IMG/VR virus record: IMGVR_UViG_3300029305_009146
DNA length: 30,507 nucleotides
Strand: one strand, 5' to 3'
Source of the DNA: an uncultured virus (IMG/VR IMGVR_UViG_3300029305_009146)
Lineage: Duplodnaviria > Heunggongvirae > Uroviricota > Caudoviricetes
The notes under the pieces were generated by a model that had not been told where the DNA came from, searched no databases, and saw only the letters and a program-made list of their open reading frames with translations. Shown here piece by piece: positions 1,740-17,319 of this stretch. The translations under genes and the position numbers were made by a program. Position 1 is the first letter of the stretch; each line of letters opens with the position of its first letter.

Positions 1740-2486
1740 TTATCGTTCCACGTCATTTTGTTCCCTGCGTTTCGCCTGCAATGTGGATAAAATATTATCC
1801 AAGTTATCAGAATTAAGTACATCTTTGTACTCTTCTTCAAAATCAACAAGCAGCTCCTTGGCTTCTTTTTCGCCTCTCATTATTTCTAAAAAGTAAGCTT
1901 GTAAATCCTCAAGAGCTGTCGCTTTTTCAATAAACTCTATCGCTTCCTTTGAAATGCAATCCCAAGAACCATACAGATTAATCGTGGCTTCTTTTATTTT
2001 ATCTAGCGATAATGGAGTGTTTGTGTTTTCGTGATAAACAAGCACTCCAAGGATATCTGACCGGTCATGTTTATATGCTCGAAAAGAGCGTAATTTCATT
2101 GCAACCAAGTATTCCCCGGAGATTATACGAACATTCAATACTCCGGAAAATGTTTTATAGTGCCTTGAATATTGTGCAATTTTCGGAGAGTATGACGATG
2201 TTTTTACAAAATTGTTGTTAAGCCATCCGTTCGGCAACCCATACATATCGCCTACAAAGTTGATTGCAGTCTTCATAGAGGCATTAGCACGAATATCTGC
2301 ATCAACATCGGTTGTCATTTCCCGAAAGTCATATCCGGCTAAAATGGCAGCGCCGCCAATCAACACAATTTCAGCATCAGCATACTTCCCGTATTCCTTT
2401 TTGTATGCCTTTCCAAGCTCTTGAAGGTATAGAATTAAATTTTCCTTCGTAAATTCCCGAGTGTTTTCATCTGTTTGGTTAAACAA
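1740..2486 (-). CDS. Nucleotidyltransferase-fold protein (DUF6036/AbiEii-like), putative toxin
   Basis: LIGGAAIL...REMTTDVD and GWLNN..., LVAMKL..FRAYKHDRSDI; overlaps the upstream HTH gene. Confidence 0.75.
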   Translation of the reverse strand: MFNQTDENTREFTKENLILYLQELGKAYKKEYGKYADAEIVLIGGAAILAGYDFREMTTDVDADIRANASMKTAINFVGDMYGLPNGWLNNNFVKTSSYSPKIAQYSRHYKTFSGVLNVRIISGEYLVAMKLRSFRAYKHDRSDILGVLVYHENTNTPLSLDKIKEATINLYGSWDCISKEAIEFIEKATALEDLQAYFLEIMRGEKEAKELLVDFEEEYKDVLNSDNLDNILSTLQAKRREQNDVER

Positions 2487-3048
2487 CTTCTCTCACCTCC
2501 GCTTCTGCGATATTATGGCGGGAAAATTCCGGAATAGCTCTTGCAAGAGCTTCCGCTTTCGCCATTTCATTTTTCATTATAGTGCAAGTTGCTATTACGC
2601 CCTGAGAAAAAACAGTTTCTGTTAGCTTCATTTTTCGTAAGTAATCGTATTTACGACAAAGTTCCACCTTGTTAATGCGGCTCACATAATCAACCATAGC
2701 CAACATATATAAGCATTCCAGATACCATTCTTTTTCATAATACTTGGTTATACTATCATCTGTAAGAACCTTAATTAAGAATTGAATATCACCAAGTTCT
2801 TTTAATTGATGACACACATTGCTTTTATAATTTTCAAAACTGCATCTTTTTTCGAAGAACGGAGCCAAGAGCTTATCCATAGAAATCCCCAGTACAGACG
2901 CAATCCTATAGACGGTTTCTGCAGAACACTTTTTTAGACAAGTCCTTCCGGAACAAATATCGTTTATTGTCGCATATGGTAGACCGCTTAGTTTAGAGAG
3001 TTTGTACATCGACATATTTTTTTCTTTGAGAAGTCTGTTAATATCCAT
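2479..3048 (-). CDS. XRE-family HTH transcriptional regulator, putative antitoxin partner
   Basis: N-terminal LLKEKNMSMYKLSKLSGLPYATINDICSG HTH; operon with the nucleotidyltransferase. Confidence 0.8.
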   Translation of the reverse strand: MDINRLLKEKNMSMYKLSKLSGLPYATINDICSGRTCLKKCSAETVYRIASVLGISMDKLLAPFFEKRCSFENYKSNVCHQLKELGDIQFLIKVLTDDSITKYYEKEWYLECLYMLAMVDYVSRINKVELCRKYDYLRKMKLTETVFSQGVIATCTIMKNEMAKAEALARAIPEFSRHNIAEAEVREVV

Positions 3049-3069
3049 AGAACCACCTCCTTATATATT

Positions 3070-3098
3070 ATTATATCGGTGCACCGACATAATGTCAA
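3070..3098 (-). promoter_or_regulatory. Consensus sigma-A promoter TTGACA-17-TATAAT with a palindromic operator TCGGTGCACCGA (3076-3087) in the spacer
   Basis: Minus strand reads TTGACA ttatgtcggtgcaccga TATAAT, then AAGGAGG and the ATG of the HTH gene. Confidence 0.9.
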
Positions 3099-3109
3099 GA
3101 AAAACTTTG

Positions 3110-3853
3110 TTACATAGCTGATTCGAAACCTCTTTTATTTTGTGCTGCATTGATACGTTTATTCTTCCATTCCTTGCTCTTTAAAACGAAAGAGCGGTAA
3201 GTTTCATAATCCGGCAAGTCAATGTACTTTCCGTTATACACATCAAAGCAGGCCTCTCCCCGAGCCATTTCGTATTCGTTTGCGGAAACCACAATATAGA
3301 TGACATTTCCTTGGTTATACTCAAAAATAGCGTTAAAGAGGTCTTCTTTGATATCGACAATATTGTCAACACTAAGACCGCTATCTACAGCATCAAGAAG
3401 AATCCATCGCTCATTCGGAATACATGGTTCCTCTACAACATCTCCGTCCAATTCTCTCATCGCCTTGGCTAAACGGCGAAACTTCTTATCCTTTGGGTCT
3501 TCTCCGGTTTTGATAAACTGACCCAGCCGAGAAGCAAGTTTTTCCATGTTTAGAACAATATTCTCCCCTTCAGAAGAAGCCATGGCATTTGCCATAAAAG
3601 AAAAATCCCCGTAAAAGCAAGCCTCAGAAACAGATTTATGTCCGCCATCCTCCAGATTATTGAAAAGGATACACGGAATGTTTTCTTTTTTAAGATTATC
3701 TTCAATTTGGTGAAGCAAGGTAGTTTTACCGACGCCGTTACATCCAACCAGAACTGTAACTCCGGGTTCAATTGCAATGTGCTTTGTCTTGTATAACTTT
3801 TCACCAGTGCCGTAGTAATCTTTATGTAACTGAAAAGTTCTTCCCATAATCAT
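3110..3853 (-). CDS. ABC/AAA-type P-loop ATPase without a membrane partner
   Basis: Walker A GCNGVGKTT, signature-like SSEGE, Walker B/D-loop ILLDAVDSGLS. Confidence 0.8.
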   Translation of the reverse strand: MIMGRTFQLHKDYYGTGEKLYKTKHIAIEPGVTVLVGCNGVGKTTLLHQIEDNLKKENIPCILFNNLEDGGHKSVSEACFYGDFSFMANAMASSEGENIVLNMEKLASRLGQFIKTGEDPKDKKFRRLAKAMRELDGDVVEEPCIPNERWILLDAVDSGLSVDNIVDIKEDLFNAIFEYNQGNVIYIVVSANEYEMARGEACFDVYNGKYIDLPDYETYRSFVLKSKEWKNKRINAAQNKRGFESAM

Positions 3854-3863
3854 TTTCTCCTTA

Positions 3864-4187
3864 TTATGCGGATTTCTTCAGCTGATACACGTTTCCACGA
3901 ATATGCTCGTGTTCTTTTTCTGCTAAAATCCTGTTCCAGAACTTAACCGCAGAATCACTGTGTGTAGCGATGCAAAAGCTGATATTCTTTTTGAATAGTT
4001 CTATTACATGCTCAAGAACTTTTCTTGCATGACCACGTCTTCTAAACGGTGCCTTTATCCCGATATGCCGAATAAAAACATCCTTCTCGTTGATGGTAAT
4101 ATCCAGTTCGCCGATATATGCATCGTTATAAAGGATATCATAATCAACCATGTTGTCAGTTTGTCGAACAGCTTTTAATCTGTACAT
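3864..4187 (-). CDS. GNAT family N-acetyltransferase
   Basis: IRHIGIKAPFRRRGHARKVL acetyl-CoA motif A and SAVKFW motif B; start MYRLK after SD AAGGGAG. Confidence 0.8.
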   Translation of the reverse strand: MYRLKAVRQTDNMVDYDILYNDAYIGELDITINEKDVFIRHIGIKAPFRRRGHARKVLEHVIELFKKNISFCIATHSDSAVKFWNRILAEKEHEHIRGNVYQLKKSA

Positions 4188-4218
4188 AAAAAATCTCCCT
4201 TCACATTTGCACACTTAT

Positions 4219-4231
4219 GTTAAGGGAAATT
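4219..4231 (-). promoter_or_regulatory. Conserved upstream motif copy 3
   Basis: gttaagggaaatt, about 16 nt from the SD of the GNAT gene. Confidence 0.75.
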
Positions 4232-4248
4232 TTAGGGGTAAAATAAAA

Positions 4249-4272
4249 AAGAGCCGGCATATACCGGCTCTT
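4249..4272 (-). terminator. Intrinsic terminator ending the long small-gene operon
   Basis: aagagccgg-catata-ccggctctt hairpin with a poly-T tail on the minus strand. Confidence 0.8.
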
Positions 4273-4283
4273 AATGCCTGTTT

Positions 4284-4424
4284 TTATCGGGTTTCCATAC
4301 CAAACTCCTCCAATATGTCATCGATTCGCATCTCAAGCATATCGGCGAAGCTTGTAAATACATTCTTTGACAGAGACTCCAAAGAATCCGGGCCTGTACA
4401 GATGAGAATATACTTGATTAATTC
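4284..4424 (-). pseudogene. Start-less reading frame (ELIKYILICTG...EEFGMETR*), probably the frameshifted C-terminus of the 4418-4921 gene
   Basis: 46 open codons fill the gap to the terminator. Removing one GA from AGAGAGGAGAATTA fuses the frames as ...RQEREELIKY... Confidence 0.5.
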
Positions 4425-4921
4425 TCCTCTCTTTCTTGCCGCTTTTCCATTTCTTTTGTCATGAGTGCATCTGCAATCTTTGTCAGATGATAAATTCGTT
4501 CCTTATCATCGAGAAAAGAACCGTCTCCGGCAAAGGCTTCGGTGTCATATACGCATTCTCCGCCTACGTCCGGATATTCTGCGTACAAGGAACCGTGACG
4601 AAGCCGCACATAACCAACCTGTTCCCCGGCAGCGGTAAACACGTCATACCGCTCCGGGCAGGGAGAACAAGTACACTTAAAGAACAAACCGGAAATATGT
4701 AAATTTCTTGGACCATTACCACGGTAGTCATATTTTGTCTCCTCGTAGAGCTCGTTCTCTTTTTCTTTGAGGATATTCTTCATCTTTTGCTCCATCATCA
4801 CTACTACATTTATGAACGTCTTATGACCTTCAACAGTACGCATAGCTTGAGCTTCGTCTCTCATTTCTTTTACGAGTTCATCAAAGGCATCTTTGACAGC
4901 ATTGTGTTCACCCCTCGTCAT
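4418..4921 (-). CDS. Hypothetical protein (CTCSPCPERYDV...GYVRLRHG)
   Basis: Likely start MTRGEH at 4921 with a GGAGGA SD; overlaps the upstream gene. Confidence 0.7.
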   Translation of the reverse strand: MTRGEHNAVKDAFDELVKEMRDEAQAMRTVEGHKTFINVVVMMEQKMKNILKEKENELYEETKYDYRGNGPRNLHISGLFFKCTCSPCPERYDVFTAAGEQVGYVRLRHGSLYAEYPDVGGECVYDTEAFAGDGSFLDDKERIYHLTKIADALMTKEMEKRQEREEN

Positions 4922-5411
4922 AATCCATTTCCTCCTCCTCTTCCAGTTCAGCAAGAACCAGTTCCACACTTCCGGTAACTTCGATGATTATACTGTTTGT
5001 TTCGGGTACTGCTCCGGCAACAGAATAATCAACATCGGACAAGAGTGGACTTCCAACCAGGCTTTCAGAAAGGTAATCCATGAGCTCTTCGATATCGAAG
5101 TTTACCATTTCTGATACATGAACCAATACCTTCCCGGTAACAAAACCGTTCTCATCCATGTTTTCACGGATTTCCCGCACGGACATCGGATGCATACGAT
5201 ACTCCGGCTCATCTTCTTTAAAATGCACCACCTCTCCGGCGACCTCCATGTGGTCGAGTGTAACCTGGTAAGTGGTAACATCCCAATCCTTGCACTTCCC
5301 AGACTCAATGGCTGCATTCTTCATATCTTCTGCAATCTTCTGTGAAGACGCACATTCAATTTGAGTTTCCCTATTCACTTCCATCTCTACAATATAAATC
5401 TTGTCTCTCAT
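4908..5411 (-). CDS. Hypothetical acidic protein
   Basis: Likely start MRDKIY after SD AAGGAG; tightly packed in the operon. Confidence 0.7.
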   Translation of the reverse strand: MRDKIYIVEMEVNRETQIECASSQKIAEDMKNAAIESGKCKDWDVTTYQVTLDHMEVAGEVVHFKEDEPEYRMHPMSVREIRENMDENGFVTGKVLVHVSEMVNFDIEELMDYLSESLVGSPLLSDVDYSVAGAVPETNSIIIEVTGSVELVLAELEEEEEMDYDEG

Positions 5412-5425
5412 GATTATTTTCTCCT

Positions 5426-5644
5426 TTACTCTTTGTGCATTTCCTCTTCCCAATCCAGCGTCACCTTCGGTTCGTCCTTATACGAGCCGTTAATGTGCTT
5501 TCGGATAATCTTTGCCTTTAAATCTTCGCCGGCTTCTTCATAAGCGTCTGCAATGAAGTTGGCATAGGCAAGGAACTTTTCATCATCACCCTCCAGATGG
5601 GCAGAAATTAAGATTCCAATAGTTGAAGCGTTGATGCATTTCAT
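5426..5644 (-). CDS. Small helical protein resembling the N-terminal domain of S8-protease-associated (IetA-like) AAA ATPases
   Basis: ATGA overlap with the upstream gene; pattern LIxAHxxGDDxxF..A..IA.....G....A..IR recognised from memory. Confidence 0.55.
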   Translation of the reverse strand: MKCINASTIGILISAHLEGDDEKFLAYANFIADAYEEAGEDLKAKIIRKHINGSYKDEPKVTLDWEEEMHKE

Positions 5645-5943
5645 TCTCGTTCTACCTCCCCCACCTTTTCTTTTTCTGCCGGCTTTCTCTTCATATACTC
5701 CCGATAGTTTTCTACATACTCCGGTACCGGTTTATCATTCAGATGATACTCCTGTAGATTCTCAGCCTTTCCCAAGAACTCTGCATCGGACTCCTTTATC
5801 CCGTAGAGTTCAAACTTCTTTTCAAAATCAAGCAAGGACACATATGCCATTTCTTCCGTATCTACAATGCATACAATCGGCATTTCTCTACCATTTGCGT
5901 TGTAGGTTTTTACCTTTACAATATCTCCATTTTCGTAATTCAT
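5641..5943 (-). CDS. Hypothetical protein
   Basis: SD AAGGAGG; ends GEVERE. Confidence 0.7.
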   Translation of the reverse strand: MNYENGDIVKVKTYNANGREMPIVCIVDTEEMAYVSLLDFEKKFELYGIKESDAEFLGKAENLQEYHLNDKPVPEYVENYREYMKRKPAEKEKVGEVERE

Positions 5944-5957
5944 AAAAACATCCTCCT

Positions 5958-6446
5958 TTATCTATCTTTATCAGTCTCTATCTGCGGAAACTCTTGTCCG
6001 TGGCATTGGCACCAGTCCCACAGTGCGTCATATTGTGCTTGGGTTAAGCACTTATTTTCCCAATAGCCATCGCGGACTCTTACTCCCCACATAAGTCCGC
6101 CGGAAGCTCGTACCCAACCGAGCTTTTGAATTCTGTCGCCGGGCCACATTACATCTGTCTCTCCATATAGGAGTTCAAGCAATTCTTCAGCTCTGTTTTC
6201 ATGTGCTTCTCCGTCGTAACATTTGCCATCCGGGGATATCCAGATATTTGGCCAGCGTGGCGTCACTTCTAACGGACACCACCCGGTTTTTGCAGTAAGC
6301 TCATGCCAGTCTTTATACTCTCTGACCTCGGACTCTTGCAGTTCTTTTTCTGTGATATCGTGCCATCCACCGGCAAAGCACCATACTTCCATTTTCTCAC
6401 GGTCAAACTCCCACCATTCTCCTTTGGAGTTTTTTACGAAAGTCAC
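5958..6446 (-). CDS. Hypothetical Trp-rich protein (WISPDG...H motif)
   Basis: GTG start with SD AGGGAG; packed in the operon. Confidence 0.7.
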   Translation of the reverse strand: MTFVKNSKGEWWEFDREKMEVWCFAGGWHDITEKELQESEVREYKDWHELTAKTGWCPLEVTPRWPNIWISPDGKCYDGEAHENRAEELLELLYGETDVMWPGDRIQKLGWVRASGGLMWGVRVRDGYWENKCLTQAQYDALWDWCQCHGQEFPQIETDKDR

Positions 6447-6450
6447 GCAA

Positions 6451-6714
6451 TCACTCCCTCTCTATGTCGTCGTATCCTTCTTTTTCTTCCTTGGATGCGG
6501 CCGGGTTTGTATACCCTTCACTCTCCAAATGTCTTATAAAATCCGTAATGTCTGAACGGCGTACCACCTCAACCGACATATCGCTACGATAGTCATAAAA
6601 CGGATTTATGTATGTTTCGTAGGTTTTTGTATCATTGTGCACCAGAAGATTAAAATGGTTTGCACAGCCTCGCTCTTGCCAGTTTTTATCCAGCCAATAC
6701 AAGTGAAATGTCAT
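6451..6714 (-). CDS. Hypothetical protein
   Basis: SD AAGGAGG; ends DDIERE. Confidence 0.7.
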   Translation of the reverse strand: MTFHLYWLDKNWQERGCANHFNLLVHNDTKTYETYINPFYDYRSDMSVEVVRRSDITDFIRHLESEGYTNPAASKEEKEGYDDIERE

Positions 6715-6725
6715 AGTCCGCCTCC

Positions 6726-6965
6726 TTATCTCTCGTCATGTTCTCGGTCTTTTTCCCACTGAGAAACCTGTTTGGCTATGCTTCTGTATCGTTCTTCGTG
6801 TCTGTACAAAAGCTCGTAAAACAATTCCTCTGGTAAAAACTCTTCGAGAAGGTCAACATCAACACGATTAAGATGCGTAAACCTTTTATCATAACTGTTG
6901 TAATTACATTCAATACAAGTACCACAGACAAAACCCTGCGTATTACCACATACCGGACAAGCCAT
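6726..6965 (-). CDS. Small zinc-ribbon protein
   Basis: CPVC...CGTCIEC; SD GGAGGA; ends HDER. Confidence 0.7.
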   Translation of the reverse strand: MACPVCGNTQGFVCGTCIECNYNSYDKRFTHLNRVDVDLLEEFLPEELFYELLYRHEERYRSIAKQVSQWEKDREHDER

Positions 6966-6976
6966 ATTCTTCCTCC

Positions 6977-7498
6977 CTATCTCTCGTCGTGCTCAAAACT
7001 AAACAGCTCTCCTCTTACAAGTTTCTGGTTCCACTCGCCAATCTCGTTCCGACGGTTATTTTCCGTAATGCTATCTGCCGGCCTACCGTTTTCCATGTAC
7101 TGAAAATGAGGAATTTCCTTTTTGTCCTCACGCAAAAATTCAATTTCCTTCTCACATTCTGTGGCATATTGCCATTCGGCATCAAGCGAATATCGTACAA
7201 CAGTTTCTCCGCTCGGTCCGACAAAAGCGTTGGTATAGGTAAAACCATCAAGGTCATACTCTTTCATAAAGACAGCAACTTCCGCCCTGCGGTTGAATCC
7301 TGTTTCGATACGGACAACAGAACCATCCTCCGGGTAGTTCCATTCATCGTTTTCATAAAGCGGCTCCCAAATATTGCTCCGGATAACATCTGCCGCAACA
7401 TCAAAAGCGTGTTGTATTTCAGAGGTAACACCGTGCATTGATGTCAATGCTTCCAGTGCCGATTTTAATTCCTTGTTTGAATATTTGGTATGGTTCAT
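6977..7498 (-). CDS. Hypothetical protein
   Basis: Likely start MNHTKY at 7498 (ATGA overlap, SD GGAGGT); ends HDER. Confidence 0.7.
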   Translation of the reverse strand: MNHTKYSNKELKSALEALTSMHGVTSEIQHAFDVAADVIRSNIWEPLYENDEWNYPEDGSVVRIETGFNRRAEVAVFMKEYDLDGFTYTNAFVGPSGETVVRYSLDAEWQYATECEKEIEFLREDKKEIPHFQYMENGRPADSITENNRRNEIGEWNQKLVRGELFSFEHDER

Positions 7499-7881
7499 CG
7501 TTCTACCTCCTGTTCTTTGTTTGTTGTCGCCAGCGGAATTCTCCCCATCTCGGAAGAGAGCCATTCTTTTACATCGGCGTCAAAAATCTTCTCTCCGAAT
7601 TTTTTGACAAAACCGGATGCAGTGAATTCCTGCATACGGCGAATCACATAACAGGCTTCCTCTTTCGATAGACTGGCAAGAGAAATAGTCATAATAGAAT
7701 CATCTTTCCCCATTATTCTTGCGCCCATAGCAAAGTGAGCTTCCAGTCCGACGAGTTTATCATATTCTCCGACCTTAAGCAGAATATCATCTTCCCGGTC
7801 AATAAGTACCGCCGGGTTCTTCATAGGGACATTACTGTACCCGTTAAACAATTCTCCGTATTGCACATAAAAATGGTCCAT
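7495..7881 (-). CDS. Hypothetical protein
   Basis: SD GGAGGT; ends EQEVER. Confidence 0.7.
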   Translation of the reverse strand: MDHFYVQYGELFNGYSNVPMKNPAVLIDREDDILLKVGEYDKLVGLEAHFAMGARIMGKDDSIMTISLASLSKEEACYVIRRMQEFTASGFVKKFGEKIFDADVKEWLSSEMGRIPLATTNKEQEVER

Positions 7882-7882
7882 T

Positions 7883-8176
7883 TTATCGTTCTACCTCCTG
7901 CCCTTCTCTTTGCTCAGGTTTTATACGTCCGAGAATAAAATCTTCAAACGGAACAGCCTCACCACGTTTTACATACCATTCCATCACTCTATCCATAGCG
8001 ATGGCGTGTTTTTCTTTTACTTCCAAAGTCTCATAAAACAAGTCACAAAGGACATTGTTTTTTACCAGCTCTGTCACATCCTCGTTACCCCGGAATACAC
8101 GGAAGTCGTACTCCTTCCCTTCCTCGTATTCGAACCAGTATTTACTGTGCTCCATGATAAGTGTTTTCTTTGCCAT
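7883..8176 (-). CDS. Hypothetical protein
   Basis: Likely start MAKKTL with SD GAGGAGG; ends GQEVER. Confidence 0.7.
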   Translation of the reverse strand: MAKKTLIMEHSKYWFEYEEGKEYDFRVFRGNEDVTELVKNNVLCDLFYETLEVKEKHAIAMDRVMEWYVKRGEAVPFEDFILGRIKPEQREGQEVER

Positions 8177-8192
8177 ATTATTTTCCTCCTCT

Positions 8193-8459
8193 TTAGTCAA
8201 ACGGCATTTCTGCCAAATCGCCCTCGTACTCCTTCTCAATGATGTCTTCCAGTGCCACGAATACATCACACTCATTTCTTCCGTCCCAGACTACAATGCC
8301 GTCATCCGCAATATCGCGGAGAAGTACATTATAAAGCTCGTTTGTGGTTCCGTCATTATCCATACGCCAGCACAAGGAATCAATGATGTTCCCCGGGGCG
8401 TATTCCTCGCCATTCATGTAAAAGACCTTAAACGTTTCAATGCTTGCCATATCAATCAC
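8193..8459 (-). CDS. Small, very acidic hypothetical protein
   Basis: ORF in the operon with a GAGGAG SD; D/E-rich. Confidence 0.65.
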   Translation of the reverse strand: MIDMASIETFKVFYMNGEEYAPGNIIDSLCWRMDNDGTTNELYNVLLRDIADDGIVVWDGRNECDVFVALEDIIEKEYEGDLAEMPFD

Positions 8460-8814
8460 GCTCCTCTCTCCTCTATCGCTCCAAGTCGTTTTCTTGTTCG
8501 ACTTGTTGAGCGCTTTCTAATTCTTTGTTCATCATAAACTCGATACATTGAACCTTGCCGCGAATTACTACATTTGACAGATTTTCTTTCGTCACGACTC
8601 TGGCTTCCAAATTTCCGGATTCTTCTATCAACTCATCAATGATATGATGATATTTTTCATAGCCATATTCCGTGAACCAGCACCGACTATCTACGCCAGG
8701 ATTACTCTTATACCACTTGGGTTCTTTAAGAAACCTTGCAAAGTATCGTCTTTGGTCCGGGTTTAAAACGGCAAATATTCCAACATACTCGCCGTTTTTC
8801 TTTGCTTCATATCT

Positions 8815-8990
8815 TTGACACTCCCCATATCTAAAGAAGGGGGATTCTTTCTAGCTGCCATTGTGTGGCTGGACAGTCCGTTTCCGGCAGCCCGCACTGA
8901 AAGGTTCGGGTGTGCCATCACCCATCATAGGGCAGAGCATATAGCTCCCTATGCAGTATGTCCGACATTACTGTCGCCAACATACTCAGT
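8815..8990 (-). ncRNA. Predicted TnpB omegaRNA (reRNA) scaffold; 5' boundary approximate
   Basis: Inferred from the established TnpB architecture (tnpB 3' end to the right end); the guide would continue into the flank at 8814-8795. Confidence 0.55.
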
Positions 8991-10085
8991 TGAGTCGCAG
9001 ATGTTTCTGGCGCCCAACAGGTCTCGGTGTGTATGGTATCCGCAGGTACACCGGTAGTCCCGGTCGTCCGCGTGGTGAACGCTTCCACATTTCGGGCACT
9101 TCTGGCTCGTGAAGGCGGGATTTACATACAGCACTTTGATGCCTGCAAGCTTTGCCTTGTATTCTATGTACATGGCAAGTCGGTAGAAGCTCCATGTATG
9201 CAGGCTGTGGTTGTTTTTACGACTTTGTCTTGTCGTGGAACGGATATTGGATAACTGCTCCAGTTTGATGACCTTTACGCCATGAGCCATGGCAGTTTCA
9301 ATGATGTCCCGGCTCAGCTTATGGTCCAAGTCCTTCATAATCCGCTGTTCTTTATCATTGATGCGCTTAACTGCTTCCGGGTGCTTCGACTTTTGAAGCT
9401 TCTTACGCAGATACGCATAATGCCGGCGCATATACTTGTTCCGGCGGCCGTTTCCGTAGAATCGGACACTTCCGTCAGAGCAGTAGGATACCGCAGGGCA
9501 TTTGATGCCAAGGTCCACACCCATGACAGAACCATCATCTGTGAATTCCGGTTCCGGAAACTCGTAGACAATCTGTGCAACCATGTGGTTGCCCTTAACA
9601 ACAAGCCTCATGGTGCCAAGCTTGGCAGAAGACAGAAGTTCTTTCTGACGCTCCGTCACTTTCGTGGCTACGGAAATACGCTTGGCCTTTCCACAAACCA
9701 TGACCGGGAACTCAATGCGGTCCTCAAGGAGGCGAAAGTTCTGGTTATTGATATAACAGCACGGTTTCCGGAGTGTTGGAAGGCTTGGCGCTGTCACCCG
9801 GATATCCAGACCACGCTCCATCAGTCGGCGGTTCTTAAGAACGGCCTTACGGCAGAACTTATAATGCTTTGTCACGATGGACTTTGCATCCCGAATACAC
9901 TGGTTCTTTAGTGCCGACGGAAGGTCCGCAGCCACATCCTTGGAAGTGAGTTTCACAATGGAGATGCCTTTTGTTGCATCAGAAACAAGCCCGTTCACCG
10001 TAGCGATATATGTTTCCATCGTGGCGGATAGAATCTTTTGCTGTTCTTTTGTGGGGTACAGCTTAATGGTTTCTGATAACTGCAT
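8949..10085 (-). CDS. tnpB: RNA-guided endonuclease TnpB
   Basis: TIKLYPTKEQ N-terminus; RuvC residues GVDLG, IKLEQL and HRDLLGARNI; zinc finger TSQKCPKC...CTC; likely start MQLSET at 10085. Confidence 0.93.
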   Translation of the reverse strand: MQLSETIKLYPTKEQQKILSATMETYIATVNGLVSDATKGISIVKLTSKDVAADLPSALKNQCIRDAKSIVTKHYKFCRKAVLKNRRLMERGLDIRVTAPSLPTLRKPCCYINNQNFRLLEDRIEFPVMVCGKAKRISVATKVTERQKELLSSAKLGTMRLVVKGNHMVAQIVYEFPEPEFTDDGSVMGVDLGIKCPAVSYCSDGSVRFYGNGRRNKYMRRHYAYLRKKLQKSKHPEAVKRINDKEQRIMKDLDHKLSRDIIETAMAHGVKVIKLEQLSNIRSTTRQSRKNNHSLHTWSFYRLAMYIEYKAKLAGIKVLYVNPAFTSQKCPKCGSVHHADDRDYRCTCGYHTHRDLLGARNICDSTEYVGDSNVGHTA

Positions 10086-10243
10086 TGGAATCCCGAGCCT
10101 CCTTTTCTTTAAGAATGAGAGAAAGTATCCGCAAAACAACTGTGTGTATGCAGGGAGTAACAGTTGACGCCCTTATATCCCCATGGCTAAAGCGAGGAGC
10201 TTTACGGACTACTTCTGTAATACACCCTTTAACCTCCTTAGCG

Positions 10244-10624
10244 CTATCGTTCCATGCCCTCCTCAATCTCAGCGAACTGCTCTTCTAAATACTCGATATC
10301 ATCCAGCAGAGTCCCTATATCGTCATACAAACAGGAAGCATCGCACTCTGCCTCATCATACACTACCGTCAGTTCCGGAAGAGTTTTGCCGTAAAATCTG
10401 TCTTCGGTCTCTGCACGGTCGTACATATCCCGGTATGCCGTGAGGAGTGTCTTAGCACGGGAGATTGCAGCAAAGACATCATCCCTACGGACTTTATCCG
10501 CCTCTTCAAGAGCAGAAATTGCCATCTTAAAGGCGTGTGCCGCCGATGCATCCTTTGAAAAGAAATACGGTTGCTCATCATAATACTTCAATATCTCTAC
10601 TGCTTCTTTTTTTGTCATATTCAT
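10244..10624 (-). CDS. Hypothetical phage-like protein (MTKKEAVEIL...AFKMAISALE)
   Basis: SD AAGGAGG; ends EEGMER. Confidence 0.7.
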   Translation of the reverse strand: MNMTKKEAVEILKYYDEQPYFFSKDASAAHAFKMAISALEEADKVRRDDVFAAISRAKTLLTAYRDMYDRAETEDRFYGKTLPELTVVYDEAECDASCLYDDIGTLLDDIEYLEEQFAEIEEGMER

Positions 10625-10641
10625 ATTCGTTCTTCCTCCTT

Positions 10642-10905
10642 TTAATAAACATCCATTGTATTGAGTACACCAGTTACCAATGCATAATCAATCGGTCGGT
10701 TTAAATGCCGACAGTGAGTAAAATACTCTTCAATCCACCGGGCGACCACTATTATATGCGCAATAATATCTTCCGGTACAGACCCTCTGTATTGCTTCGA
10801 AGTATGTACAATCGTCTCCATACCATTCGGAGAAACATCTCCGTCACTTTTCATATCTTCTAAAAGCAAAAACTTTACTTTTTGAACATACTCGCCGGTT
10901 CTCAC
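10642..10905 (-). CDS. Hypothetical protein
   Basis: GTGA overlap with the upstream gene; in-frame KEEERI* follows its stop codon. Confidence 0.6.
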   Translation of the reverse strand: MRTGEYVQKVKFLLLEDMKSDGDVSPNGMETIVHTSKQYRGSVPEDIIAHIIVVARWIEEYFTHCRHLNRPIDYALVTGVLNTMDVY

Positions 10906-11177
10906 TCCCGCTCTTCCTCCTTATCCTTGGGTAAAGCCAGCAAAGGCCTCCTAATGACATCGATTGCTGTATCCAAGGCATCTTGATACCAGAATAATGT
11001 GGTCGCATCAAGCGCCACACAATGTTTTTCCTCTTCCAGCTCCTCTACCTTAGCCTCTATATCATAGGCGGTAGGGATACTGTCTATTACAGCTTCGATT
11101 TCATCGTCAAACTCTGCCTCTCGTAACTTATCCAAAATGTCTCGTCTTTTTAAAACATCAGCATCAATCAATCGCAT
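10902..11177 (-). CDS. Hypothetical phage-like protein (MRLIDAD... type)
   Basis: MRLIDAD...IDSIPTAYD pattern common in Clostridial phages and mobile elements; ends KEEERE. Confidence 0.7.
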   Translation of the reverse strand: MRLIDADVLKRRDILDKLREAEFDDEIEAVIDSIPTAYDIEAKVEELEEEKHCVALDATTLFWYQDALDTAIDVIRRPLLALPKDKEEERE

Positions 11178-11185
11178 ATCTTTCC

Positions 11186-11989
11186 CTACCTTTCCATATC
11201 TTCCTTCTCGGCCTGCAGATTTTCAAGCATCTCCTCTATCTTATCCAAATGCGCCTCGTCCATTGGTCTTCCGCCACGATTGAGCATTAGGAAGTATTTA
11301 AGTCTTGTTTCCCTGTCTGTATTGTTGACTTCTGCGTAATCGGCACTGTGTTCTAAAAAGGTGTTTTTGTCTTTTGCCGACAAATCGTTATAATAAACGC
11401 CCTGATACGGAAGTTTATTCTCGTAAAAAGCCATTAATGTAGTAAGACGCTGCTTTCCGTCTAACATTTCATAGCTTACTTCACGCTCCAGCCACTCTTC
11501 ATTATCTAAATGTATAAAGGCAAATTTTCCGATATCAACATTGTTGAACACGCTCCAGAGGAGCTTTTGCTTGTCTTCATCGTTCCATACAAGTCCACGC
11601 TGGTATTCCGGCTCAAAATCAACGCCAAAATGATAAGCAATGTGAAGGACACTCTCAATAGTCGATGAATTAAAATGCAACCTTACATCTTCATTTTTTG
11701 TAAAATTGGTTTCTCCCTTGGTAAACGGTCTTACATCCATCCAAGAACACACATGGCAGACTTCTGCGTCCTTAGAGGAAGTGTGTCTTATACAGCGGAG
11801 CACATAGGCTCGGCCGTCGTATAAAACTTCTTCTACGGTAGCGTCCTTTAATCTTCCACACGCCACTTTATCACCGACATTAAACTGATAGGACGGCTCC
11901 GGAATAAAGGGCAGCTCTCTTTCAATAAAGCTTATTCCTCTTTTCTTTTCTTGCTCCCATAATTCTTCTTTGGTTATTTCTTTTTTCAT
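11186..11989 (-). CDS. DUF262 (ParB-like/GmrS) domain protein with an N-terminal SH3-like extension
   Basis: PEYQRGLVW, MLDGKQRLTTL and FLMLNRGGRPM motifs; no HNH/DUF1524 domain. Confidence 0.85.
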   Translation of the reverse strand: MKKEITKEELWEQEKKRGISFIERELPFIPEPSYQFNVGDKVACGRLKDATVEEVLYDGRAYVLRCIRHTSSKDAEVCHVCSWMDVRPFTKGETNFTKNEDVRLHFNSSTIESVLHIAYHFGVDFEPEYQRGLVWNDEDKQKLLWSVFNNVDIGKFAFIHLDNEEWLEREVSYEMLDGKQRLTTLMAFYENKLPYQGVYYNDLSAKDKNTFLEHSADYAEVNNTDRETRLKYFLMLNRGGRPMDEAHLDKIEEMLENLQAEKEDMER

Positions 11990-12125: not shown

Positions 12126-12169
12126 ATCATAAACAGAAATAAAAAAAGAGGCGCTCGCCTCTCTTTTTT

Positions 12170-12670: not shown

Positions 12671-12714
12671 GCTTAATATCCCCCTTTGTTAAAGTTAATT
12701 ATGCTTCTATTACA

Positions 12715-12727
12715 GTTAAGGGAAATT
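12715..12727 (-). promoter_or_regulatory. Conserved upstream motif copy 5
   Basis: gttaagggaaatt. Confidence 0.75.
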
Positions 12728-12746
12728 TTGAGGTGTTTTTCATTTT

Positions 12747-13397
12747 TTATATCAATTCTTTTTTGATTTCTTCTATAACCAGATTCAATTTCTCATAACA
12801 GACGGTCAATTGCTTTACTGTCTCCAAGGGGAGCTTTTCTCCGGAGGAGGTTACATACACCTCTCCGGAGTATGTAATTCGCGCAGAGGGACAGAGTGTT
12901 ATCTTTGTTACATTCCACGCCCTCCACAGTTTTTGTTCCGTCAGATGCCGTTCATCATGTGTTTTATACCATTCTTTTTCCTGTTCCAAGCACCAGAGAA
13001 GCTGGCGATGAAAGCATTCGTCGGCAAGGTCTGGGTAAATGTCGCCTCTCCCGGGGAGTTCCAGCTGAACAAAGCGTTCCATCCCGAAAAACACATATTT
13101 TCCGTGCCATACCTTGTCATCTACCAATTTTTTACTATCGTTATTCCTGAGCCATTTTCGCAAAGAGTTCGTCCACACGCACCCGAATTTATCTTTAGGA
13201 AGCTGTTCCTTGTCCGCGGCGTATTTATCCAAAAGAGCCAGCATATAAGACAAATTGCCTTCATGGAAACTATCCACAAAGGCAATCTTATCCTCTCGTA
13301 TTGTTGTTTTTTCGCACAGAAACACTGGCTCTTTTCTGGAAGAGCTTTTGCTTTCCATATAAAGTCTTAACTCCTCTACGTTCCACAGAAACACCAA
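12747..13397 (-). CDS. Hypothetical protein
   Basis: 216-aa ORF, TTG start with SD AAAGGGG. Confidence 0.65.
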   Translation of the reverse strand: MVFLWNVEELRLYMESKSSSRKEPVFLCEKTTIREDKIAFVDSFHEGNLSYMLALLDKYAADKEQLPKDKFGCVWTNSLRKWLRNNDSKKLVDDKVWHGKYVFFGMERFVQLELPGRGDIYPDLADECFHRQLLWCLEQEKEWYKTHDERHLTEQKLWRAWNVTKITLCPSARITYSGEVYVTSSGEKLPLETVKQLTVCYEKLNLVIEEIKKELI

Positions 13398-13409
13398 GCA
13401 TCAACCCCT

Positions 13410-13523
13410 TTAGCGCTCGTATACAGGCTCCAACTCCCCTCGAATCATACACTCATTTACACTCATGACAAACTCATTGATGCGGTCATAATCCGGATTC
13501 TCCGGCAAATCCGTGTCTTCTTT
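13410..13523 (-). pseudogene. 3' remnant of a gene (KEDTDLPENPDYDRINEFVMSVNECMIRGELEPVYER*), resembling the C-terminus of Pol-beta-type nucleotidyltransferases
   Basis: Start-less frame of 37 codons. The TxLPxxPDYxxIxEFxxxVNE pattern is recalled from Clostridial nucleotidyltransferases. Confidence 0.45.
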
Positions 13524-13555
13524 TCATACATTATATCACAAAGTTTCCTGATATT

Positions 13556-13568
13556 GTTAAGGTAAAAA
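13556..13568 (-). promoter_or_regulatory. Conserved upstream motif copy 6 (variant TTTTACCTTAAC)
   Basis: gttaaggtaaaaa after the terminator at ~13580-13611. Confidence 0.65.
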
Positions 13569-13612
13569 TTGGTAATAAAAGAAAGAGGCCGCTATGCAGC
13601 CCCTTTCTTTTT

Positions 13613-16600: not shown

Positions 16601-16783
16601 TTTTTCTTCCAGAACCTTTTCAAGCTCAGCAGATACATTCGCAATTTTCTCTCCTTTTAACATACGAAGAGTTACTGCTTTTACCGCGCCGGATACCAGC
16701 GCATGATTGCTGGTGGTAGAGAGGTCAATATTTCTTCTTCTTAAACAAGATGACATTTTATTAAGTTCACTTGCTTTTCTCAT
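13613..16783 (-). CDS. UvrD/PcrA-family SF1 helicase with an N-terminal PD-(D/E)XK-like, Cys-cluster domain
   Basis: LSDAQEEAI, AGAGAGKT, LLTFT, VVDEFQDT, VGDDSQAIFSFR, LENHRS, TAHSSKGLEW and EERRRLLFVTLTRAR; N-terminal FDFY..VEVCKIKT, ELYAM and CxxxxCxxCxxxxxC. Confidence 0.9.
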   Translation of the reverse strand: MRKASELNKMSSCLRRRNIDLSTTSNHALVSGAVKAVTLRMLKGEKIANVSAELEKVLEEKGHNFENRTQKERVLESYDRYIRRYVASEGRVLQFPRGNEVVNLFGEDVIPNFDFYTVNGDNVEVCKIKTSSPGTQKSSNESLELYAMSLWAKKMFPNATKISSSYYHLKGPSDTGKGSIATMDYYDERATKKHHEQIYDAARDSFFEGEYKNLTAECSPDDCVSCPQNNICHYIGSKKPSEEPKSVKPVADIMLSDAQEEAIAHNEGVGRINAGAGAGKTLVVAMNIVNLLMNGAEPDDICLLTFTNSGALEMTERIQAYCAELGLDVDTSRITSATFNSFCQKILEERYMELGFLAPPDVIDDETKCGVIKEILDKYSPISEWDYLNFTMNMARAKGALWSAVETFAQIKKNGWTRLNHKIEHLSEPSITVLFQAYEDFCNLLKARNLVEYDDQLLMVFDLLKSDPTLFDKMGFRHIVVDEFQDTDLPQIKLLQEMINTPKFKSFLAVGDDSQAIFSFRNTSPEYLIDFFNYFGAGKDYYLLENHRSQAEIIKMANRINAMNVRRVEKDLVPTKAPGIIPIVQGFYSQDEEYEYIANEIEKKVKDGVRTSDICFIGYTKYELQKMADILAKKDIPVVLMNPEPYIENSKVKAVLSFGDSYHYGTTAGILELLNIYSGNTLLANYTDKELDKLITDFKIELEATPQTKQGFMDIVNQLDPDKEDEVFQSFLEKVERRNTIADLYRYLHDFEMYGQKSAFKKEAKYDGVVLTTAHSSKGLEWDHVYCSVTKFDGERYHVLRRDDEEVEERRRLLFVTLTRARKELYVTGDYTAYNNEKEGRVINQYLRNCYSAIGKDMDVDFNEYFIRQKKAQLAAKQNKAKASGVSLDSLVKRTARKDKLIKELEEQFAKAYPGKDFYIEQGFPNADFLEEKDIKAYIEMYAKKNVLSELNDLMARLYPGQTLESAFKLKKGDVDNATSEHLVGIVANIKYLEGKTPDEIKELREALNHCNSFLFPNKNTMNECIGASIKYRGMTFEDCIKQYHEDKEAELVEKE

Positions 16784-17319
16784 CGGTCAAAATCCTCCTT
16801 CTGATGCACAAGCGCATCTTTTTCTCTCAGTGTTTTGATAATCAGTTTTGCAATTTTTTCCGGGCTGTCGTTTTTGTCGATTCTAAGGCCGTTCCAGGTT
16901 CCCTTAGTCCCGTTAATTCCATTCATAAATTTGATTCCTGTTCCTCCGGCCGCTTCCCATTCGCGAAGGTTTGGGGTATAATCATCTATCAAAATATCAT
17001 TTGGTTTTATTCCGCCGGGTACATACTTTGTCTTATTTATTCCACACGATGAAAAAATTCGGTTATGGCGAGGAATTTCCGGAAGTTGCTCGTCAACCCA
17101 TGAGTTCTTTTCCTTTAACGCATATTTGCTGTCCTGCAAATAATGGGAATTAATAAAGCCTTCCACTCCTTCGGATGTAATAACAGCTCTAAAGGCAAGA
17201 ACAAGAGCATCGTGTGCTTTTAATGTACGAAAATAACCCTCTTCATATAAATCTTCAAAGGCAGTCACGGGCTTCCACTCTGCGAAAGACCCGTCCATAT
17301 CGCCAAAAAGTCGTCCCAT
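16780..17319 (-). CDS. HAD-superfamily 5'(3')-deoxyribonucleotidase (NT5C-like)
   Basis: FGDMDG (DxD) and ILIDDYTPNLREWEAAGGTGI; ATGA-coupled to the helicase. Confidence 0.85.
   Translation of the reverse strand: MGRLFGDMDGSFAEWKPVTAFEDLYEEGYFRTLKAHDALVLAFRAVITSEGVEGFINSHYLQDSKYALKEKNSWVDEQLPEIPRHNRIFSSCGINKTKYVPGGIKPNDILIDDYTPNLREWEAAGGTGIKFMNGINGTKGTWNGLRIDKNDSPEKIAKLIIKTLREKDALVHQKEDFDR

What the first reader, a model, noticed from the sequence alone, without database searches (positions are those of the whole stretch)
1740..17319. Shared C-terminal tail (acidic-x-hydrophobic-[ED]-R) on about 14 unrelated proteins
Seen C-termini: QNDVER (1740), FGMETR (4284), GEVERE (5641), ETDKDR (5958), DDIERE (6451), EHDER (6726 and 6977), EQEVER (7495), GQEVER (7883), ENDLER (8473), EEGMER (10244), KEEERE (10902), KEDMER (11186), EPVYER (13410) and KEDFDR (16780); looser DFLEK and ELVEKE. 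Codons differ (GAA CGA, GAG AGA, GAG AGG, GAA AGG, GAG CGC, GAC CGA), and the tail also occurs on last-in-operon genes (1740, 4284), so an overlapping SD cannot explain all cases. It is absent from the membrane/exported proteins, VirB4, PrgI and TnpB. Established: several T4SS substrates use C-terminal charged signals. Inference: an appended sorting tag, such as a conjugative translocation signal delivering cargo to recipients, or a degron or docking motif.
Basis: partly seen in the sequence, partly recalled or inferred. Interest (0 to 1): 0.8.

Follow-up and report, generated by a model that had tools for sequence, protein, structure and literature searches.

The report
Shared Glu-Arg tail on conjugative-element proteins
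About a third of the proteins encoded in this stretch of a gut-type Gram-positive conjugative element end in the same few residues (acidic, any, Glu, Arg), a tail that recurs on unrelated soluble proteins of related elements but not on host or phage proteins, and that most plausibly works as an address label for the DNA-transfer machine.

Summary
13 of 36 curated genes end in [DE]-R or E-R-E (12 of 20 between 4.4 and 17.3 kb; 0 of 10 in the T4SS half). Shuffling the last 10 residues gives 1.2 on average.

Gene overlap does not explain it:
- Only 6 of 13 tails hold the next gene's SD or start.
- 28 of 80 DUF6036 homologues from metagenomes carry the tail, mostly before terminators, with varied Glu and Arg codons.
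- 56 tight junctions in control loci have none.

The tail is specific to conjugative and mobilizable elements of Clostridia: 24 of 402 ORFs in 20 ICE regions, against 4 of 375 host and 4 of 218 phage ORFs. It sits on at least 28 unrelated soluble families, including relaxases, ParB, ArdC-like, primase-like and polyvalent proteins. Consensus: charged run, [DE] at -4, x, E, R-COOH.

Best reading (about 0.4): a recruitment or translocation tag read by the coupling protein or an adaptor. This is untested. The main rival is an expression or stability cap: a universal pre-stop Arg/CGA bias is published, and CGA is over-used here.

Earlier notes of this scan describe the same terminal-Arg tail (e1-2645653) and other such tails on other DNA.

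The parts
1740..2486 (-). DUF6036 nucleotidyltransferase gene, tail ...EQNDVER; followed by a terminator, no downstream gene
   Evidence: Pfam PF19502; tail and downstream sequence; terminator at 1736-1707; 48 of 120 database homologues and 28 of 80 metagenome homologues carry the tail
5641..5943 (-). 100-aa unknown protein, tail ...GEVERE; its stop overlaps the next start (ATGA) and the SD GGAGG lies in codons -6/-5
   Evidence: no Pfam hit
5958..6446 (-). 162-aa unknown protein, tail ...ETDKDR; the SD of the next gene begins right after the stop
6451..6714 (-). 87-aa unknown protein, tail ...DDIERE; here the tail codons GAG AGG GAG are themselves the likely SD of the next gene (GTG 4 nt after the stop)
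6726..6965 (-). 79-aa unknown protein, tail ...REHDER; SD after the stop; the junction is repeated at 6956-6994
   Evidence: repeat D8
6977..7498 (-). 173-aa unknown protein (start taken at the ATG that overlaps the upstream stop), tail ...FEHDER
7495..7881 (-). 128-aa unknown protein, tail ...KEQEVER; ATGA overlap with the next gene
   Evidence: repeat D9/D20
7883..8176 (-). 97-aa unknown protein (start set from homologues), tail ...GQEVER; relatives P0001 (EEQEIER) and P0002 (KEQEVER, with a different C-terminal half) keep the tail, P0003 does not
8473..8850 (-). Open frame ending ...ENDLER; start unclear, lies directly downstream of the TnpB insertion
10244..10624 (-). 126-aa unknown protein, tail ...EEGMER
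10902..11177 (-). 91-aa unknown protein, tail ...KEEERE; GTGA overlap with the next gene
11186..11989 (-). DUF262/GmrSD_N (ParB-like) protein, tail ...KEDMER; only the two closest homologues (80% and 73% identity) and one distant homologue carry a tail
   Evidence: Pfam PF03235; the AF2 model puts the tail at the end of helix 245-266
16780..17319 (-). NT5C-like 5'-nucleotidase protein, tail ...KEDFDR; ATGA overlap with the UvrD-like helicase gene
   Evidence: Pfam PF06941; 17 of 150 family representatives carry the tail
4284..4502 (-).
13410..13523 (-).
27692..30483 (-). VirB4-like ATPase and PrgI genes of the Gram-positive type IV secretion system; no tail. The coupling-protein gene is not in the window
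   Evidence: Pfam PF19044, PF12666; C-termini

Best explanation
The tail is a short linear motif selected at the protein level and anchored to the free C-terminus. Its consensus is a charged run, Asp/Glu at -4, any residue (often hydrophobic) at -3, Glu at -2 and Arg-COOH. Many unrelated soluble proteins of Tn1549-like (PrgI/VirB4/PcfB/VirD4-type) conjugative and mobilizable elements of gut Clostridia carry it.

Shown here: the motif is real, terminus-specific, confined to such elements, absent from membrane proteins, and kept through synonymous codon changes and through insertions in front of it.

Inferred: it is an address label. In the donor it would be bound by the element's type IV coupling protein or an adaptor next to it, such as PcfB/DUF3801. 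That would recruit DNA-processing, anti-restriction and establishment proteins to the transfer channel for delivery into the recipient with the DNA. On this reading the 12 tailed genes between 4.4 and 17.3 kb are a block of injected 'first-aid' proteins.
For: **1. Terminus-specific excess.**
- 13 of 36 window genes carry the tail, against 1.2 expected after shuffling the last 10 residues.
- In 20 DUF3801-centred ICE regions of Clostridia genomes, 24 of 402 ORFs carry it against 5.5 expected, with 23 [DE]R at the terminus against 1-7 at other offsets.

**2. Specific to conjugative elements.**
- Host regions of the same kind of genomes: 4 of 375 ORFs (Fisher p = 1.7e-4).
- Five Faecalibacterium phages: 4 of 218 ORFs.
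- Six Lachnospiraceae loci of tightly packed small genes: 0 of 178 ORFs.
- ER is the commonest terminal dipeptide of the ICE set, 21 of 402.

**3. Convergent.**
- 77 [DE]R-ended proteins fall into 28 unrelated clusters.
- The cluster-weighted profile shows acid at -4 in 55% (background 13%) and few hydrophobic residues at -4 to -6. These positions were not used for selection.

**4. Peptide-level conservation.**
- On a tree of 120 DUF6036 proteins built without the last 20 residues, the ER state (46 of 120) needs at least 13 changes. I read about six separate ER groups from the leaf order. Position -3 varies within them (I, V, M, Y, N, T, H, P, R).
- The 26 ER and 2 DR tails among 80 metagenome homologues use both Glu codons and AGA, CGA, CGG, AGG and CGC. 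Most are followed by terminators.
- The tail stays terminal despite a roughly 100-aa insertion (P0004) and linkers of different length.
- NT5C-domain proteins of 176-3724 aa: ER is the top terminal dipeptide (14 of 150).

**5. Carriers.**
- MobA_MobL relaxases 3 of 4, a PF03432 relaxase group 2 of 2, ParB-like 5 of 10, ArdC-like 3 of 4.
- Also PcfB/DUF3801, Toprim/DUF3991 and SNF2-methylase polyvalent proteins.
- Papers say F-plasmid T4SS moves ParA, ParB, SSB and PsiB (PMC8406263, abstract and passages). They say ArdC and TraC1 are transferred and that polyvalent proteins are proposed to be (PMC5512222, passages).

**6. Soluble proteins only.** 47 of 348 soluble ORFs against 1 of 168 ORFs with a hydrophobic segment (p = 7e-8; crude ORF calls).

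**7. Tails cluster by element.** Counts are L132 6 of 21, L156 4 of 19 and L232 4 of 18. Most loci whose DUF6036 lacks the tail have none.
Against: - **No experiment.** The window's coupling-protein gene lies outside the window, so no reader of the tag is identified.
- **Codon choice is biased.** It is not neutral. CGA is the terminal Arg codon in 7 of 13 window tails, against 10% internally (p = 9e-5). CGT and CGC are absent. In 54 other tails CGA is 31% against 9%, and GAA 78% against 53%. This is the universal pre-stop bias published for 1,582 genomes (CGA odds ratio 4.44). That paper links the NNA-before-UGA preference to overlapping start codons and the effect of C-terminal residues on protein level to degradation (PMC7246954).
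- **Most window tails precede a close gene.** 12 of 13 are followed by a gene or an SD within about 25 nt, and only one sits at an operon end.
- **Relaxases of one tail-rich lineage lack it.** L132-type relaxases show 0 of 7. Tn1549 itself has 0 of 20.
- **Some carriers look like toxin-antitoxin or abortive-infection parts** (DUF6036 with an HTH partner, HipA-like). They have no obvious reason to be exported.
- **The tail is dispensable in one family.** 12 DUF6036 homologues in species-representative genomes have no tail.
- **The tail is modelled as helix.** AF2 places it at the end of a fairly confident terminal helix (pLDDT about 71-92 in the last blocks), not in a floppy tail.
- **Window tails are acidic or neutral.** They lack the positive charge that I recall for Agrobacterium-type signals.
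Confidence: 0.4

Rival explanations
1. Expression or stability cap. The tail is an extreme, element-specific form of the general bacterial preference for charged residues and A-ending codons before the stop. It would raise protein yield through cleaner termination, protection from C-terminal proteolysis, or capping of a terminal helix. Such help would suit genes that must work at once in a new host.
For: - PMC7246954 (abstract and passages) reports Lys and Arg enriched at -1 (2.32x and 1.76x). Only CGA, AGA and AGG are enriched, with CGA strongest. Charged ends give up to fourfold more protein, and the authors attribute this to slower degradation.
- The same codon signature is seen here.
- In all ORFs of the related loci, the third base of the last codon is A in 37%, against 21% internally.
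- PMC13478746 (abstract and passages) reports that leading regions of plasmids are GC-rich and codon-adapted. The tailed block here is the GC-richest part of the window, 0.42-0.47 against 0.38-0.40.
- AF2 puts two tails at the ends of terminal helices. That an Arg with an acid three or four residues before it would favour such a helix is my inference.
Against: - The general bias favours Lys over Arg and says nothing about Glu at -2 or acid at -4. Here Lys is not enriched: terminal K is 3 of 36 in the window, and 36 of 402 in ICE against 49 of 375 in host.
- Host genes (4 of 375) and phage genes, including arrays of early genes (4 of 218), show no excess.
- Membrane proteins of the same elements lack it, whereas the published bias also holds for membrane proteins.
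- Elements of the same class have none (Tn1549, 0 of 20).
Confidence: 0.25
2. By-product of tight gene packing. The last codons are shaped by the Shine-Dalgarno sequence, spacer and start codon of the next gene, or by repeated junction sequences kept by recombination between modules.
For: - In 6 of 13 window tails the SD or start of the next gene lies in the last codons. Examples are GGAGGTAGAACGATGA at 5641, 7495 and 7883, and ATGA or GTGA overlaps at 5641, 7495, 10902 and 16780.
- Junctions are repeated: 6705-6743 with 6956-6994, and 7494-7517 with 7882-7905.
- PcfB genes often end GAA CGA TGA, overlapping the coupling-protein start.
- P0002 keeps the tail although its C-terminal half differs. 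A conserved junction would predict this.
Against: - In 6 further tails the SD begins at or after the stop, and one is followed by a terminator.
- 7 of 28 genes stay tailed when the overlap cases are removed (p = 1.5e-8).
- 28 tailed DUF6036 homologues are mostly followed by terminators or non-coding DNA.
- 56 tight junctions in four control loci have no tail, though those loci are AT-richer at 26-33% GC.
- 3 tight junctions in the window's own T4SS half have none.
- The SD explains Glu/Gly upstream, not Glu-Arg.
Confidence: 0.07
3. A protein-level tag read by something other than the secretion system. It could be a degron that limits the life of entry-phase proteins. For example, a terminal Arg could be open to arginine phosphorylation and ClpCP; that pathway is recalled and was not tested. 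It could also be a docking peptide for a common hub, such as the relaxosome, a partition complex or a host factor.
For: - All the evidence that the motif is a terminus-anchored peptide confined to soluble proteins of these elements fits this reading equally well.
- Carriers include toxin-antitoxin-like proteins, for which controlled turnover makes sense.
- Notes of this scan report different terminal motifs in other element lineages. Tn1549 proteins end [LQ]-E-[LV] in 5 of 20, which suggests a co-evolving reader of some kind.
Against: - No candidate reader was identified.
- The published data say that charged ends stabilise rather than destabilise proteins.
- Which families carry the tail fits transfer better than turnover.
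Confidence: 0.18

Closest known systems
C-terminal, positively charged transport signal of Agrobacterium VirB/VirD4 substrates (Vergunst et al. 2005; seen here only as a title in the reference list of PMC8406263; details recalled)
   Same: - A short signal at the extreme C-terminus of otherwise unrelated soluble proteins.
- Arg is important.
- In the wider set, a basic patch occupies -6 to -10 (35-52% K/R).
- Carriers include relaxases and DNA-binding proteins.
   Different: - The window's tails are acidic or neutral.
- The invariant part here is Glu-Arg-COOH with acid at -4, not a spaced Arg pattern.
- The system is the Gram-positive PrgI/VirB4/PcfB type.
- No transfer assay exists.
Glu-rich 'E-block' signal of Legionella Dot/Icm (type IVB) effectors with a hydrophobic residue near -3
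   Same: - An acidic run close to the C-terminus, with hydrophobic -3 in about half.
- Many unrelated cargo proteins per system.
   Different: - No type IVB genes (DotL/DotM) are seen.
- The terminal Arg is obligatory here.
- The hosts are Gram-positive.
Universal C-terminal Lys/Arg and CGA/AGA/AGG bias of bacterial genes (Weber et al. 2020, PMC7246954, passages read)
   Same: - Arg at -1.
- CGA is the most over-used codon, with A-ending codons before the stop.
- Part of the bias is due to ATGA overlaps.
   Different: - That bias is about twofold, genome-wide, strongest for Lys, and also present in membrane proteins.
- Here terminal Arg is 10 of 36 and 63 of 402 in ICE against 25 of 375 in host.
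- Glu is fixed at -2 and acid is common at -4.
- The excess is confined to soluble proteins of conjugative elements.
TraD C-terminal tail binding to TraM in F-like plasmids (PMC8406263 passages)
   Same: A short C-terminal peptide serves as a docking device within the conjugation apparatus.
   Different: There a single tail on the coupling protein binds one relaxosome protein. Here many cargo proteins carry the tail. The coupling proteins of related elements end in acidic but non-ER tails.

Membership tests
T4SS C-terminal translocation signal (VirB/VirD4 type) | Signal lies in the last ~20-50 residues of soluble substrates | tested here: met
   [DE]R sits at the exact terminus: offsets 10, 3, 0, 1... 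in the window, and 23 against 1-7 in the ICE set. 47 of 348 soluble ORFs carry it against 1 of 168 with a hydrophobic segment.
T4SS C-terminal translocation signal (VirB/VirD4 type) | Net positive charge / spaced Arg residues in the tail (feature recalled) | tested here: inconclusive
   The wider set has 35-52% K/R at -9 to -6. The cluster-weighted profile gives only 11-36%. The window's own tails are mostly acidic.
T4SS C-terminal translocation signal (VirB/VirD4 type) | Element encodes a VirD4-type coupling protein that could read it | tested here: inconclusive
   Related tail-rich elements encode one (PF02534 in L132 and L126; 20 aligned). None lies inside the window.
T4SS C-terminal translocation signal (VirB/VirD4 type) | Tail is necessary and sufficient for coupling-protein-dependent transfer of a reporter | not testable with these tools
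   This needs a mating assay.
Dot/Icm E-block signal | Type IVB system with DotL/DotM receptor (feature recalled) | tested here: not met
   Window and related loci encode PrgI, a VirB4-like ATPase, VirD4-like protein and PcfB. There were no IVB families among the Pfam hits.
Dot/Icm E-block signal | Glu-rich stretch with a hydrophobic residue near -3 | tested here: inconclusive
   Acid is 55% at -4 and about 33% at -5 and -6. Hydrophobic residues are 48% at -3 against 36% background.
Universal pre-stop Lys/Arg-CGA bias (Weber 2020) | CGA, AGA and AGG but not CGT or CGC enriched as the last codon | tested here: met
   Window: CGA 7, AGA 3, AGG 2, CGG 1 and CGT/CGC 0 of 13, against internal CGA 10% and CGT+CGC 38%. 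The wider set shows the same.
Universal pre-stop Lys/Arg-CGA bias (Weber 2020) | Genome-wide, about twofold, Lys at least as strong as Arg, present in membrane proteins too | tested here: not met
   Host 4 of 375 and phage 4 of 218 against ICE 24 of 402 and window 13 of 36. Lys is not enriched. Only 1 of 168 ORFs with a hydrophobic segment carries the tail.
SD / start-codon overlap artefact | Tail codons coincide with the SD, spacer or start of the next gene | tested here: inconclusive
   True for 6 of 13 window tails and not for 7.
SD / start-codon overlap artefact | Excess vanishes where no gene follows, or when overlap cases are removed | tested here: not met
   7 of 28 remain (p = 1.5e-8). 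28 of 80 DUF6036 homologues are tailed, mostly before terminators. 56 tight control junctions have 0 tails.

The most novel reading that the evidence does not exclude
Gram-positive conjugative elements of the gut use lineage-specific C-terminal 'zip codes'. Examples are Glu-Arg-COOH here, [LQ]-E-[LV] in Tn1549, and other endings noted elsewhere in this scan. A co-evolving site on the coupling protein or on PcfB would read them. Up to half of an element's soluble proteins would then be injected into the recipient ahead of gene expression. On that reading these elements are effector-delivery systems. Their cargo, including the roughly ten unknown small proteins of this window, could be listed from sequence alone.
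Probability: 0.3. Interest if true: 0.85.

Novelty: new variant of a known kind. Interest (0 to 1): 0.7.

Why it matters
No substrate signal is described for the PrgI/VirB4/PcfB-type transfer systems that move most conjugative elements of gut Firmicutes. My searches of the held library found none.

A four-residue terminal tag would have several uses:
- It could be read straight from sequence, giving a testable list of proteins sent to the recipient.
- It would point to the unknown small genes of 'leading' blocks as candidate anti-defence or establishment factors.
- It would offer a handle for asking how cargo choice co-evolves with the coupling protein.

If the rival is right, the result is still useful. 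It would be a clear case of element-specific tuning of the C-terminal context for protein yield.

Tried and rejected
**Searches that found nothing**
- No whole genome is held for the window, so the element could not be compared with its own host. Host regions of other Clostridia genomes were used instead.
- Near-identical DNA: none in plasmids or phages.
- Close relatives of the helicase or the DUF262 protein: none in genome contigs or viral contigs.
- DNA search in 113 genomes of the family of G001: only short weak matches.
- Rfam: no family in the window.
- Earlier notes for this genome or for look-alike DNA: none.

It was not repeated, so no binding test exists.

**Ideas considered and dropped**
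- Reassigned Arg codons: five different Arg codons are used in the window's tails.
- Paralogy of neighbouring genes: only the 24-39-nt junctions repeat.
- Purine-rich gene ends in general: EK, EE and KK are not enriched as ER is.
- Composition of charged tails: the shuffles argue against it.

**Limits of the controls**
- A search of the phage collection with the ParB-like protein mostly returned unannotated fragments from human faeces, unusable as a control. Five named Faecalibacterium phages were used instead.
- Gene calls outside the window come from a crude longest-ORF caller. Its spurious ORFs dilute all the rates.

Full report
**What the window is.** Nearly all genes lie on the minus strand.
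- The right half (17.4-30.5 kb) holds a Gram-positive type IV secretion module: PrgI, a VirB4-like ATPase, large unannotated proteins and membrane proteins.
- The stretch from 4.4 to 17.3 kb is a run of small unknown genes. It also holds a DUF262/GmrSD_N protein, a UvrD-like helicase, an NT5C-like nucleotidase and an inserted TnpB gene.
- Left of it lie a GNAT gene, an AAA ATPase gene, an HTH-DUF6036 pair and a VanY-like peptidase gene.
- No close DNA relative exists in the plasmid or phage collections. No whole genome is held.
- The VirB4 protein is about 35% identical to those of Tn1549-like elements fetched later. The element is therefore a separate lineage of that class.

**The observation.**
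- I keep 13 tails as robust. I set aside the frames ending at 4284 and 13410, which have no usable start.
- 13 of 36 curated genes end in [DE]R or ERE. That is 12 of 20 in the 4.4-17.3 kb block, 1 of 6 to its left and 0 of 10 in the T4SS half.
- The dipeptide sits at the exact end 10 times and one residue in 3 times. It is almost absent elsewhere in the last 14 residues.
- Shuffling the last 6, 10 or 20 residues gives 2.2, 1.2 and 0.6 on average, and never more than 7 in 2000 trials.

**Is it a by-product of packed genes?** I read each junction.
- In six cases the next gene's SD or start lies in the last codons. Examples are GGAGGTAGAACGATGA at three junctions and ATGA or GTGA overlaps at four.
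- In six cases the SD starts at or after the stop.
- The 1740 gene is followed by a terminator.
- Removing the overlap cases leaves 7 of 28 genes tailed (p = 1.5e-8 at the host rate).
- Four loci with arrays of small genes around DUF262 homologues have 56 junctions of 25 nt or less and no tail. They are AT-richer than the window.
- So overlap explains some upstream Glu and Gly residues. It does not explain Glu-Arg.

**Codons.**
Five Arg codons occur, but CGA makes up 7 of 13 against 10% internally, and CGT/CGC are absent against 38% internally (p = 9e-5).
- In 54 non-identical ER tails from related loci, all six Arg codons occur. CGA is 31% against 9%, AGA 26% against 14% and GAA 78% against 53%.
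- In all ORFs of those loci, the third base of the last codon is A in 37% against 21% internally.
- This matches a published universal bias. Lys and Arg are enriched at -1. Only CGA, AGA and AGG are enriched, with CGA highest. Part of the bias comes from ATGA overlaps (PMC7246954, passages).
- The codon skew therefore shows a general pre-stop context effect on top of whatever keeps the residues.

**Homologues.**
- 7883 protein: two of three relatives keep the tail. One of them has a different C-terminal half.
- DUF262 family: 3 of the 120 listed hits carry a tail. These are the two closest relatives and one distant one. One close relative has a roughly 100-aa insertion and still ends ...EEIER.
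- DUF6036 family: 46 of the 120 listed hits end ER and 48 of 120 match [DE]RE?. On a tree built without the last 20 residues, the ER state needs at least 13 changes, against about 35 for shuffled labels. I read about six ER groups from the leaf order. Within them -3 varies while ER stays.
- 80 metagenome loci with DUF6036 homologues: 26 end ER and 2 end DR, with consensus [DE][DE]xER. The ER tails use GAA or GAG with AGA, CGA, CGG, AGG or CGC. Most are followed by hairpin terminators or non-coding DNA.
- 12 DUF6036 homologues from a sample of 400 Clostridia genomes had no tail.
- NT5C-domain representatives, 176-3724 aa: ER is the commonest end (14 of 150) and 17 of 150 match the tail. Terminal residues are R 46, L 28, I 20 and E 17.

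**Where else it occurs.**
- Tails cluster by locus. L132 has 6 of 21, plus several Ala-Arg ends. L156 has 4 of 19. Most loci whose DUF6036 lacks the tail have none.
- L132 is a Tn1549-like element with NikA-like protein, relaxase, PcfB/DUF3801, ArdC-like protein, VirD4-type coupling protein, TrbC-like protein and PrgI.
- I then took 20 regions of up to 20 kb centred on DUF3801 genes in 20 Clostridia genomes, and 20 host regions of 20 kb from ten such genomes.

| Set | [DE]RE? ends | Terminal Arg |
|---|---|---|
| ICE regions | 24 of 402 (ER 21, the top dipeptide) | 63 of 402 |
| Host regions | 4 of 375 (Fisher p = 1.7e-4 against ICE) | 25 of 375 |
| Five Faecalibacterium phages | 4 of 218 | 20 of 218 |

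- Only the ICE set exceeds its own shuffles: 24 observed against 5.5 expected. Host gives 4 against 3.3 and phage 4 against 1.8.
- Carriers are ParB-like (5 of 10), MobA_MobL relaxases (3 of 4), one PF03432 relaxase group (2 of 2) and ArdC-like proteins (3 of 4). PcfB, Toprim/DUF3991, SNF2-methylase polyvalent proteins, DUF5720, DUF6075 and small unknowns also carry it. L132-type relaxases do not (0 of 7).
- Among 516 ORFs of ICE loci and the window, 47 of 348 without a hydrophobic segment carry the tail, against 1 of 168 with one. The ORFs come from a crude caller.

**The motif.**
- 77 [DE]R-ended proteins form 28 unrelated clusters.
- Weighted by cluster, acid is 55% at -4 (background 13%) and about a third at -5 and -6.
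- Hydrophobic residues are 48% at -3 and 6-11% at -4 to -6, against about 36% background.
- Unweighted, K/R reach 35-52% at -9 to -6.
- AF2 models of the DUF6036 and DUF262 proteins put the tail at the end of a terminal helix, with mean pLDDT 82 and 92.

**How it most likely works.**
- The data show a terminus-anchored peptide motif kept by selection on soluble proteins of conjugative and mobilizable elements.
- The kinds of carrier match proteins that papers report or propose as transferred with the DNA. ParA, ParB, SSB and PsiB go through an F-plasmid T4SS (PMC8406263, abstract and passages). ArdC and TraC1 are transferred, and polyvalent proteins are proposed to be (PMC5512222, passages).
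- I therefore favour, at about 0.4, a recruitment or translocation tag read by the coupling protein or by PcfB. This step is inference.

**Rivals.**
- The main rival (0.25) is an expression or stability cap. The published bias and its link to protein level support it. So does the report that leading regions are GC-rich and codon-adapted (PMC13478746, abstract and passages). It does not explain the fixed Glu, the missing Lys, or the absence from host, phage and membrane proteins.
- A degron or hub-docking role (0.18) fits the peptide-level data but has no reader.
- The overlap artefact is at 0.07.

**Other tails.**
- Tn1549 in pMG2200 has no ER tail (0 of 20). Five of its 20 proteins end [LQ]-E-[LV](-E): PcfB, the YodL polyvalent protein, a hypothetical protein, the Cys-rich protein and the relaxase.
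- PcfB homologues alternate between ...ELER and ...ELDL-type ends.
- Earlier notes of this scan, read after my own analysis, describe the same terminal-Arg tail on another element (e1-2645653). They describe other shared tails on Clostridia elements too (e1-2151562, e1-745336, e1-1098814, e1-5756209, e1-2674826, e1-4770916). They are unchecked AI notes, not independent evidence.

**In print.** Five searches of the held library returned no description of such a tail or of a substrate signal for this class of transfer system. Subscription journals are not covered.

Noticed in passing
window 440-464, 1684-1708, 4212-4250, 12708-12729, 13552-13568, 17342-17363 (minus strand): A conserved box, TT(T)CCCTTAAC, follows each intrinsic terminator. 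It precedes the next operon's ribosome-binding site by about 20-35 nt. There are six copies, which suggests a shared promoter or operator for the element's operons.
   Followed up: partly
window 4284-4502 and 4418-4969 (minus strand): The frame ending FGMETR has no start codon. It overlaps the last 85 nt of gene 4418-4969 in another frame, just before a terminator. It could be a frameshifted or decayed gene end.
   Followed up: no
window 8473-10246: A TnpB-only insertion (8949-10139) sits between an SD plus GTG that follows the 10244 stop and the start-less open frame 8473-8850. It may therefore split a tailed gene.
   Followed up: no
L156:590-12340: Nearly every gene of this metagenome element is followed by the same perfect hairpin, GTGTCCGAATCGGACAC. 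Four of its proteins end ...E-E-L-E-R with different Leu and Arg codons.
   Followed up: partly
L255 (Tn1549 region of pMG2200) 10339-30435: There are no Glu-Arg tails. Five of 20 proteins end [LQ]-E-[LV](-E): PcfB, the YodL polyvalent protein, a hypothetical protein, the Cys-rich protein and the relaxase. This may be a different tail type.
   Followed up: partly
window 16780-17319 and its family: The NT5C-like domain of this small protein occurs elsewhere inside multidomain proteins of up to 3724 aa. 111 of 150 family representatives end in R, L, I or E.
   Followed up: partly
L132, L126, L215-L234 (coupling-protein genes): The VirD4-type coupling proteins of these elements end in acidic but non-ER tails, for example EREEEEPS, EVIELDEE and SPEDLDEI.
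   Followed up: no
window 4000-11000: The tailed block is the GC-richest part of the window, 0.42-0.47 against 0.38-0.40 in the left flank. Part of this is due to the TnpB insertion.
   Followed up: no
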